A stretch of 2,077 nt of DNA, taken from the NCBI RefSeq assembly GCF_003334405.1, contig NZ_QOWM01000039.1. One strand, written 5' to 3'. The position numbers and the translations under genes were made by a program. Positions within the stretch are counted from its first letter, which is position 1. Each line of letters starts with the position of its first letter. The notes under the pieces were generated by a model. That model saw nothing but the letters and a program-made list of their open reading frames with translations. It did no database searches and had not been told where the DNA came from. The DNA comes from Escherichia coli (lineage in GTDB: Bacteria > Pseudomonadota > Gammaproteobacteria > Enterobacterales > Enterobacteriaceae). Below are positions 1-180 of this stretch, piece after piece.

Positions 1-180
1 CCATAAATCTGTCCCCCAATGTCATTGGCAGACAAACTGAAATCTACACATTCAATAACTCAAACCAATTACGTGTCCTTTTAAGTATATGAAATTAAAA
101 TTATTATTGGCTTTTCCGTTAAATTCTCTGCCAATTTTAAGCGTCATAAACAACCTCTTTTCCAACCATAAATTTGTCCC
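1..180. repeat. 15-bp direct repeat pair CCATAAAT[C/T]TGTCCC at 1-15 and 166-180 (14 of 15 identical), flanking an AT-rich spacer
   Basis: Read directly from the sequence: ccataaatctgtccc at 1-15 and ccataaatttgtccc at 166-180. The first copy abuts the window edge, so the repeat may extend upstream. Function unknown (iteron-like, binding site, or chance). Confidence 0.45.

What the first reader, a model, noticed from the sequence alone, without database searches (positions are those of the whole stretch)
1..180. 15-bp direct repeat at the window edge, possibly part of a larger repeated unit
CCATAAAT[C/T]TGTCCC occurs at 1-15 and 166-180 with one mismatch, and a short inverted pair attggca (24-30) / tgccaat (130-136) lies between. 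Because the first copy abuts the window boundary, the true unit may be longer and may belong to an iteron array, a recombination site or a boundary of an inserted module upstream of the pas-like element.
Basis: seen in the sequence. Interest (0 to 1): 0.25.

Follow-up and report, generated by a model that had tools for sequence, protein, structure and literature searches.

The report
Orphan iterons of a sister replicon
The two 15-bp repeats are stray copies of the replication-initiator binding site (iteron) of a different, sister type of IncX4 plasmid, sitting beside this plasmid's own R6K-like origin; they are most likely leftovers of an origin that was replaced.

Summary
The repeat is real: CCATAAAT[C/T]TGTCCC at 1-15 and 166-180. 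It extends one base upstream, to 16 nt. Within the window it is not significant, since 7.5% of shuffles do as well. The window is the origin-proximal region of an IncX4-backbone plasmid with an R6K/pir-type replicon. This plasmid's own iterons are four tandem 22-bp TTTAACGGCAAATCCTCTCATG units about 90 bp upstream of the window, and they are unrelated to the repeat. The whole 30.9-kb plasmid holds only these two copies. In sister plasmids on the same backbone that carry a different Rep_3 initiator (335 aa, 28% identical), the same 16-mer is the invariant core of 5-7 tandem 22-bp iterons. Those arrays abut three DnaA boxes, and one more copy lies by the rep start. The mcr-1-type IncX4 plasmids (Rep 40% identical) also keep exactly two copies in the same positions, identical in sequence, around a barely alignable spacer. 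A close sister of that type has one decayed copy. Another plasmid type carries a whole decayed type-C origin with a single iteron. Conclusion: these are orphan heterologous iterons, most likely vestiges of replicon-cassette replacement. A role as trans-acting decoys against the sister replicon is not excluded. Interest is modest.

The parts
1..15 (+). Box 1. Orphan copy of the type-C Rep_3 iteron core. The full 16-mer ACCATAAATCTGTCCC starts one base before the window. A 22-nt block (to window 21) is identical in IncX4 type B, except that this window has A instead of G at position 18.
   Evidence: (22/22 identity between A and B)
16..164 (.). A/T-rich spacer (68.7% A+T) between the two boxes. 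It is only weakly homologous to the 117-nt spacer of type B, is found only in type-A plasmids, and shows no conserved ORF, Rfam match or DnaA box.
165..180 (+). Box 2. Orphan copy ACCATAAATTTGTCCC (the T variant, which also occurs in genuine arrays of type C'). It is positionally homologous to the last iteron of the type-C array.
181..227 (+). Right flank of box 2 (TGGTTAGC..TTGAAATAAAAAGGAAATATAATAT). It is homologous at about 80% to the sequence that follows the last iteron in type C and follows box 2 in type B. The A/C recombination junction lies at about 216-228.
24..35 (.). It is judged to be chance.

Best explanation
The two repeats are solitary copies of the 22-bp iteron (invariant 16-nt core ACCATAAAT[C/T]TGTCCC) that belongs to a different Rep_3-family initiator. 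That initiator is the 335-aa 'type C' Rep of the non-pir cluster of IncX4 plasmids. Here the copies sit in the non-coding stretch between this plasmid's own R6K-gamma-type origin (pir-like Rep, four 22-bp CTCTCATG-type iterons, A/T tract) and the pas-like element. They are most likely vestiges of a type-C origin that once occupied this backbone position and was superseded when a pir-type rep-plus-origin cassette took over. The type-C rep gene, its DnaA boxes, its A/T-rich unwinding segment and all but two iterons are gone. The boxes therefore have no role in this plasmid's own initiation. With no cognate Rep in cis they are silent, unless a type-C plasmid enters the same cell. In that case they would be expected to bind its Rep and act as weak incompatibility or titration sites. 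Shown here: the sequence identity to genuine arrays, the absence of a cognate Rep, the absence of an array, the cassette boundaries, and decay in relatives. Inferred: the order of events and any trans effect.
For: 1. Context. The window lies on an IncX4-backbone conjugative plasmid. The pir-like rep gene ends 388 bp upstream, and the plasmid's own iterons are 4 perfect tandem 22-mers at window -184 to -92.
2. Array in sister plasmids. In L006-L010 (type C) and L019/L020 (type C'), the 16-mer occurs 5-7 times at 22-bp spacing. The array abuts three perfect DnaA boxes and is followed by an A/T-rich tract. One more copy lies about 90 bp upstream of the rep start. This is the classic iteron-origin layout. 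Both the C and the T variant occur in genuine arrays.
3. The type-C Rep has Pfam Rep3_N plus Rep3_C domains and is only 27-28% identical to this plasmid's Rep.
4. Plasmid A encodes no type-C Rep (tblastn) and has only these 2 copies.
5. Homology to the type-C origin resumes exactly at box 2 and its right flank (window 154-215, 81%). The type-C DnaA boxes and the roughly 115-nt A/T segment are missing.
6. The rep-ori cassette (window -1268 to about 227) is a swapped module in a backbone 95-99.7% identical to type-C plasmids.
7. Relics exist elsewhere. L021 (type D) carries, 1 kb from its own origin, a decayed type-C origin with degenerate DnaA boxes, one iteron, the A/T tract and a second pas copy.
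8. Dispensability. L023, whose Rep is 93.8% identical to type B, has a single box with 2 substitutions and no second copy.
9. The boxes track the IncX4 backbone, not Rep phylogeny. The closest Rep A relative (61% identity, L011) and IncX1, X3 and X8 origins lack them.
Against: Types A and B have Reps only 40% identical and a spacer that is barely alignable (about 60-68% in aligned columns). Yet box 1 is identical over 22/22 nt and box 2 over 16-17 nt, including the same C/T difference. For neutral relics in flanks 70-80% identical this is unexpected, with a rough joint probability of 0.01 or less. It suggests purifying selection or recent exchange. No substitution falls in a box among six type-B sequences, though this is not significant (P=0.20). 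The order of events (type-C origin first, pir cassette second) is inferred and not shown. No binding or incompatibility experiment exists.
Confidence: 0.6

Rival explanations
1. The boxes are maintained by selection as decoy iterons. By binding (titrating or handcuffing) the Rep of type-C IncX4 plasmids, pir-type IncX4 plasmids would exert one-way incompatibility on competitors that share their backbone and niche but not their initiator.
For: Both boxes match the invariant iteron core perfectly, and they are perfectly conserved between cassettes A and B despite 40% Rep identity and a diverged spacer. A reciprocal pattern exists: type-A, type-C and type-D plasmids carry type-B-like iteron sequences at window 502-522 and 626-646. 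It is established knowledge that iterons outside an origin can inhibit replication by titration and handcuffing (reviewed in PMC6090056).
Against: The B' lineage (L023) has let the site decay to one degenerate copy. Two sites are few compared with the 6-8 sites on the target plasmid itself. The population data are underpowered. No experiment exists. Shared entry-exclusion genes probably already limit co-residence (inference).
Confidence: 0.22
2. The boxes are cis-acting sites of the pir-type origin itself. They would be auxiliary binding sites for the plasmid's own pi-like Rep or for a host or backbone protein, analogous to the enhancer and DnaA-box-2 region on the A/T-rich side of R6K gamma ori.
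For: Their position is just beyond the A/T tract, where IncX1, X3, X8 and type B carry a DnaA box. Type A lacks a DnaA box there, and box 1 occupies that place. The type-A and type-C iterons share a register, AACnnnAAATCnnnnCnnnTTT (12/22, my alignment of sequences). The boxes are conserved between A and B.
Against: The boxes lack the CTCTCA/TGAGAG core shared by all pi-type iterons seen here. Other pi-type origins, including the closest Rep A relative, work without them. B' has lost one and mutated the other. Reps A and B have different iteron specificities, yet the boxes are identical.
Confidence: 0.08
3. The repeats are a target-site duplication flanking a small inserted element of about 150 bp. 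Equivalently, they mark a site where deletion between direct repeats occurs.
For: L023 has a single copy and no spacer, which superficially resembles an empty site.
Against: The duplicated sequence is exactly an iteron that occurs naturally in multiple copies. The spacer has no terminal inverted repeats, and the internal inverted pair is not significant. The L023 junction is imprecise, with 13 extra nt between the box and the flank. A 16-bp target duplication would be unusual (general knowledge).
Confidence: 0.03
4. The repeat is a chance match in A/T-rich DNA.
For: 7.5% of shuffled windows contain an equally good repeat.
Against: Both copies are conserved in position and sequence in type-B plasmids, and they are identical to the core of tandem arrays in types C and C'.
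Confidence: 0.01

Closest known systems
Iterons of Rep_3-family theta replicons (R6K pi, F RepE, pPS10 RepA): tandem 19-22-bp initiator-binding repeats
   Same: In sister plasmids the same sequence forms 22-bp-phased arrays next to DnaA boxes and an A/T-rich tract, with a copy at the rep promoter. The associated Rep has Rep3_N and Rep3_C domains (iteron lengths and layout as reviewed in PMC4980987).
   Different: In this plasmid there are only two copies, 165 bp apart. There is no cognate Rep, no adjacent DnaA box and no type-C unwinding segment. The resident Rep uses a different iteron.
Auxiliary or control iterons outside the minimal origin (P1 incA, F incC, V. cholerae ori2-inc; single and half iterons at R6K ori alpha and beta)
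   Same: Both are initiator-binding repeats located beside the minimal origin rather than in it. Such sites can act by titration or handcuffing (PMC6090056; the P1, F and R6K examples are from my own knowledge).
   Different: Those sites bind the replicon's own initiator and are part of its control circuit. Here the sites match a foreign initiator only 28% identical to the resident one.
Vestigial replicon fragments in mosaic or multi-replicon plasmids
   Same: Pieces of a former origin persist after cassette replacement. L021 shows the same thing on a larger scale, with decayed DnaA boxes, one iteron, the A/T tract and a duplicated pas.
   Different: Here the remnant is reduced to two perfect iteron cores that are better conserved than their surroundings.
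IncX4 cluster I (pir-type) versus cluster II plasmids (Sun et al. 2017, PMC5428312)
   Same: Published work already recognises that plasmids typed IncX4 fall into two clusters, one of them with a pir-type replicon.
   Different: That paper does not describe iterons, and I found no description of cluster-II-type iterons inside pir-type plasmids.

Membership tests
Iteron of the type-C (IncX4 cluster II) Rep_3 replicon | Sequence matches the repeated unit of the tandem array next to that rep gene | tested here: met
   Both window copies contain the invariant 16-nt core ACCATAAAT[C/T]TGTCCC derived from 18 distinct units in L006-L010, L019 and L020.
Iteron of the type-C (IncX4 cluster II) Rep_3 replicon | Occurs as an array of at least 3 copies at helical-phase (22-bp) spacing in the plasmid under study | tested here: not met
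   There are two copies 165 bp apart and no others in 30,896 bp at up to 2 mismatches.
Iteron of the type-C (IncX4 cluster II) Rep_3 replicon | The cognate initiator gene is present in cis | tested here: not met
   tblastn of Rep C against the whole plasmid finds only the resident Rep, at 28% identity.
Iteron of the type-C (IncX4 cluster II) Rep_3 replicon | Adjacent DnaA boxes and an A/T-rich unwinding element, as in a functional origin | tested here: not met
   There is no DnaA box (at up to 1 mismatch) in window 1-227. The roughly 115-nt A/T segment that follows the array in type C is absent.
Iteron of the type-C (IncX4 cluster II) Rep_3 replicon | Bound specifically by the type-C Rep protein | not testable with these tools
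   This needs EMSA, footprinting or ChIP.
R6K-gamma / pi-type iterons of the resident replicon | Shares the CTCTCATG (TGAGAG) core of the resident 22-bp iterons and lies in the tandem array | tested here: not met
   The resident iteron is TTTAACGGCAAATCCTCTCATG x4 at window -184 to -92. The boxes lack the core.
Auxiliary control iterons (P1 incA / F incC type) | Extra copies of the replicon's own iteron | tested here: not met
   The boxes differ from the resident iteron. They match a foreign replicon's iteron instead.
Target-site duplication of a mobile insertion | Terminal inverted repeats or a recombinase, and a precise empty site in relatives | tested here: not met
   There are no terminal repeats, and the internal inverted pair is at chance level. 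The single-box relative L023 has an imprecise junction.

The most novel reading that the evidence does not exclude
The orphan iterons are kept by selection as decoys. Under this reading pir-type IncX4 plasmids, including the epidemic mcr-1 vector, carry perfect binding sites for the initiator of the sister (cluster II) IncX4 replicon, and cluster II plasmids carry pir-type-like iterons in return. Plasmids sharing one backbone would then interfere with each other's replication control despite having unrelated initiators. This would be a form of heterologous, iteron-mediated incompatibility warfare.
Probability: 0.2. Interest if true: 0.6.

Novelty: new member of a known kind. Interest (0 to 1): 0.3.

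Why it matters
Plasmids typed as IncX4 include the main global vector of mcr-1. This analysis shows that they carry at least four or five rep-origin cassettes on one backbone (types A, B/B', C/C' and D; Reps 21-41% identical between types). Cassette turnover has left initiator-binding sites of one type inside another. This affects replicon typing, because one 'IncX4' label covers several different initiators. It also shows how plasmids can change their replicon type, and possibly escape incompatibility, by swapping replicon cassettes. It raises a cheap, testable question: do orphan iterons cause cross-incompatibility between plasmids whose initiators are unrelated? If they are pure relics, the finding is an ordinary piece of plasmid archaeology.

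Tried and rejected
1. Longer repeat unit or further upstream copies: rejected. The repeat gains only 1 nt, and no third copy exists in the plasmid.
2. Identity with the plasmid's own iterons: rejected.
3. Coding or RNA function of 1-227: only short non-conserved ORFs, no Rfam match at E up to 0.1, and promoter-like hits not above the shuffled background (4 found against 2.3 +/- 1.6).
4. The inverted pair as a structural element: at chance level and not conserved.
5. DnaA or IHF consensus sites within or at the boxes: none.
6. Presence of the boxes in other IncX groups (X1, X3, X8, and the 61%-identical Rep A relative): none at up to 3 mismatches.
7. Metagenome scan for the 22-nt box-1 block, to find new independent lineages: it returned only one type-A and three type-B contigs.
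8. SNP-density test for selection within type B: underpowered, P=0.20.
10. Literature searches for a prior description of these repeats in IncX4 found none. The only relevant statement is that IncX4 has a pir-type cluster and another cluster.

Full report
OBSERVATION. The window begins with CCATAAATCTGTCCC (1-15), and CCATAAATTTGTCCC recurs at 166-180 with one mismatch. The inverted pair attggca/tgccaat is also there and extends to 12 nt with one mismatch, at 24-35 and 124-135. Neither feature is remarkable within the window. In 200 dinucleotide-preserving shuffles, 7.5% contain a direct repeat of 15 nt or more with at most one mismatch. In shuffles of 1-180, 13% give an equally good inverted pair. 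Whether the repeat means anything had to be settled by context and comparison.

CONTEXT. The window is 99.7% identical to E. coli plasmid pDETEC36 (NZ_CP116128.1, 30,896 bp). That plasmid is conjugative, MOBP/MPF_T, and has an IncX4-like backbone. In plasmid coordinates the window starts 388 bp upstream of the start codon of a 289-aa replication initiator gene on the minus strand. Reading the missing upstream DNA shows the real origin. One or two iteron-like units lie at the rep promoter. A DnaA-box-like TGTGGATAT follows. Then come four perfect tandem 22-bp iterons, TTTAACGGCAAATCCTCTCATG, at window -184 to -92. After them is an A/T tract (AAGTTTTTAAG...AAGAAAAG). This layout and the CTCTCATG core are shared with the origins of IncX1, X3 and X8 plasmids, so it is an R6K-gamma/pir-type origin. 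The repeat of the finding lies just beyond the A/T tract. It gains only one base upstream, giving the 16-mer ACCATAAAT[C/T]TGTCCC (D8). Its sequence is unrelated to the resident iterons. The whole plasmid holds only these two copies at up to 2 mismatches.

WHAT THE 16-MER IS. Many plasmids match the window only from position 228 onward. Several of these (L006-L010) have, at the same backbone position, a different initiator of 335 aa. It is 27-28% identical to the resident Rep and has Pfam Rep3_N plus Rep3_C domains. Upstream of that gene the 16-mer occurs at L006 positions 2206 (degenerate), 2228, 2250, 2284 and 2306. The spacing is 22, 22, 34 and 22 bp. Three perfect DnaA boxes abut the array, and an A/T-rich tract follows it. 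One further copy lies about 90 bp upstream of the rep start. This is the canonical anatomy of an iteron origin with an autoregulated rep gene (iteron features as reviewed in PMC4980987). A related set, pO157_Sal-like (type C', Rep 86.7% identical to type C), has 6-7 tandem units. Both the ...ATCTG... and the ...ATTTG... variant occur within those genuine arrays. A consensus of 18 distinct units shows that exactly the 16 nt ACCATAAAT[C/T]TGTCCC are invariant. Both window copies contain that full core.

COMPARATIVE PATTERN. At least four or five rep-origin cassettes sit on the same backbone.
- Type A is this window: 6 PLSDB records and one metagenome contig.
- Type B is the classical pir-type IncX4 that includes the 33-kb mcr-1 plasmids. 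Its Rep is 40% identical to A, and it has six AACCGAGGAAGCTCTCATGTTT iterons.
- Type B' has a Rep 93.8% identical to B.
- Types C and C' are described above.
- Type D has five CCTGAAATCTGTATACCTAACT iterons and a Rep 36% identical to C.

The backbone on either side of the cassette is about 95-97% identical between types. One type-C plasmid is 99.7% identical to the window over 228-2077. Similarity is lost from the 3' end of rep (window about -1268 or -1247) to about 227. Type B, like type A, has exactly two boxes in the same relative positions. Box 1 is identical over 22/22 nt. Box 2 is identical over 16-17 nt, including the T variant. The spacer is 117 nt in B against 149 nt in A and is only weakly alignable (z=3.7 against shuffles). 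Homology between A and C resumes exactly at box 2 and its right flank (window 154-215, 81%). So box 2 corresponds to the last iteron of the type-C array. The type-C DnaA boxes and the roughly 115-nt A/T segment are absent from A and B. Plasmid A encodes no type-C Rep. IncX1, X3 and X8 origins, and the closest relative of Rep A (61% identity, on an IncF plasmid), have no such boxes. The boxes therefore track the IncX4 backbone rather than the Rep lineage.

EVIDENCE THAT SUCH REMNANTS ARISE AND DECAY. L021 (type D) has its own complete origin plus a pas-like element. About 1 kb further on it has a second, decayed type-C origin. This consists of two degenerate DnaA boxes and one intact one, an array collapsed to a single iteron, the A/T tract, and a second pas copy 89% identical to the first. 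L023 (type B') has only one box, with two substitutions (ACCATAAACCTGCCCC), and lacks the spacer and the second box. A pi-type origin nearly identical to type B therefore works without intact boxes.

INTERPRETATION. I am confident that the repeats are copies of the type-C iteron. I think it most likely (about 0.6) that they are vestiges of a type-C origin left behind by cassette replacement, with no role in the plasmid's own initiation. With no cognate Rep in cis they can only matter in trans, if a type-C plasmid is in the same cell. There, by established iteron biology (titration and handcuffing; PMC6090056), they would be expected to bind its Rep and exert some incompatibility.

The main observation against a purely neutral relic is the perfect conservation of 38 nt between cassettes A and B, whose Reps are 40% identical and whose spacer has nearly randomised. 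Against flanks of 70-80% identity, my rough estimate of the probability is 0.01 or less. This keeps alive a selected decoy or incompatibility role (about 0.2) and, less likely, a cis role at the gamma-type origin (about 0.08). A within-type-B SNP test could not discriminate: 20 variable sites in 420 columns, none in the 32 box columns, P=0.20. A metagenome scan for the 22-nt box-1 block found no additional lineages. A target-site-duplication reading and a chance reading are effectively excluded.

COMPARISON WITH KNOWN SYSTEMS AND NOVELTY. Iterons, auxiliary iterons for a replicon's own Rep, and vestigial replicon fragments are all known. The split of IncX4 into a pir-type cluster and a second cluster has been published (PMC5428312). 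I found no description of type-C iterons, or of their orphan copies inside pir-type IncX4 plasmids. The absence of a paper in the searchable library is not proof of novelty. I class the finding as a new member of a known kind (orphan or vestigial iterons) and of modest interest. Interest would rise if the decoy reading were confirmed experimentally.

The sequence is iteron-derived and lies next to a module junction. But it is not part of a longer unit, not part of this plasmid's iteron array, and not itself an insertion or deletion breakpoint.

Noticed in passing
window 502-522 and 626-646 (also 484-495 / 604-615): Two iteron-like sequences, ACCGAGAAAGTTCTCATGTTT and ACCGAGGATCTTCTCATGTTT, lie 124 bp apart. 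They resemble the iterons of IncX4 type B more than the resident type-A iterons. Window 624-648 is 96% identical to the promoter-proximal iteron of type B. They are also present in type C (L006 2765, 2889) and, partly decayed, in type D (L021 about 2440-2590). They may be relics of a type-B pir promoter/origin or an ori-alpha-like site.
   Followed up: partly
window 315-768: This 454-bp segment is present in types A, C and D but absent from type B plasmids, which have only about 74 bp between the pas-like element and the point where 95% identity resumes.
   Followed up: partly
window about 259-325: A pas-like element (TTCCGCTTCCTCGCTCACTAACTCGCTCCGCTCGGTCGTTCGACTGCGGCGAGCGG) is conserved next to every IncX origin examined (X1, X3 and X4 types A-D). 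From memory it resembles the primosome assembly site near the pBR322/ColE1 origin. The 940 mobilizable and 201 non-mobilizable plasmids among the 2641 megablast hits may reflect this segment. It is duplicated in L021 (2155-2275 and 3212-3332, 89% identical).
   Followed up: no
L001 4743-5612, L005 989-1855, L006 867-1874, L021 540-1553, L023 1220-2014: Several of the plasmids that MOB-suite/PLSDB types as 'IncX4' carry Rep proteins only 21-41% identical to one another (types A, B and C). Types A, B and C all have the same bis-like and DUF2726 genes downstream of rep (seen in L001, L005 and L006-L010). The typing label therefore does not reflect the initiator.
   Followed up: partly
window 18: This is the only difference between the window and pDETEC36 over 1-269. 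The window has A where all other type-A and type-B sequences have G (or T in one B variant at the neighbouring position). It lies just outside the 16-nt core but inside the 22-nt block conserved between A and B.
   Followed up: yes
window 1310-1825 (+): A 171-aa J-domain (DnaJ-like) protein gene, identical at protein level (WP_001025395.1) in type A, B and C plasmids and present near the origin in IncX3 and IncX8 as well. Chaperone dependence of Rep_3 initiators makes its conserved position next to the origin noteworthy.
   Followed up: no
window 1864-1898: A near-perfect 14-nt inverted repeat (CCCGTCTTTTGGGG / CCCAAAAAGACGGG, 7-nt loop) lies downstream of the J-domain gene. It is probably its intrinsic terminator.
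   Followed up: no
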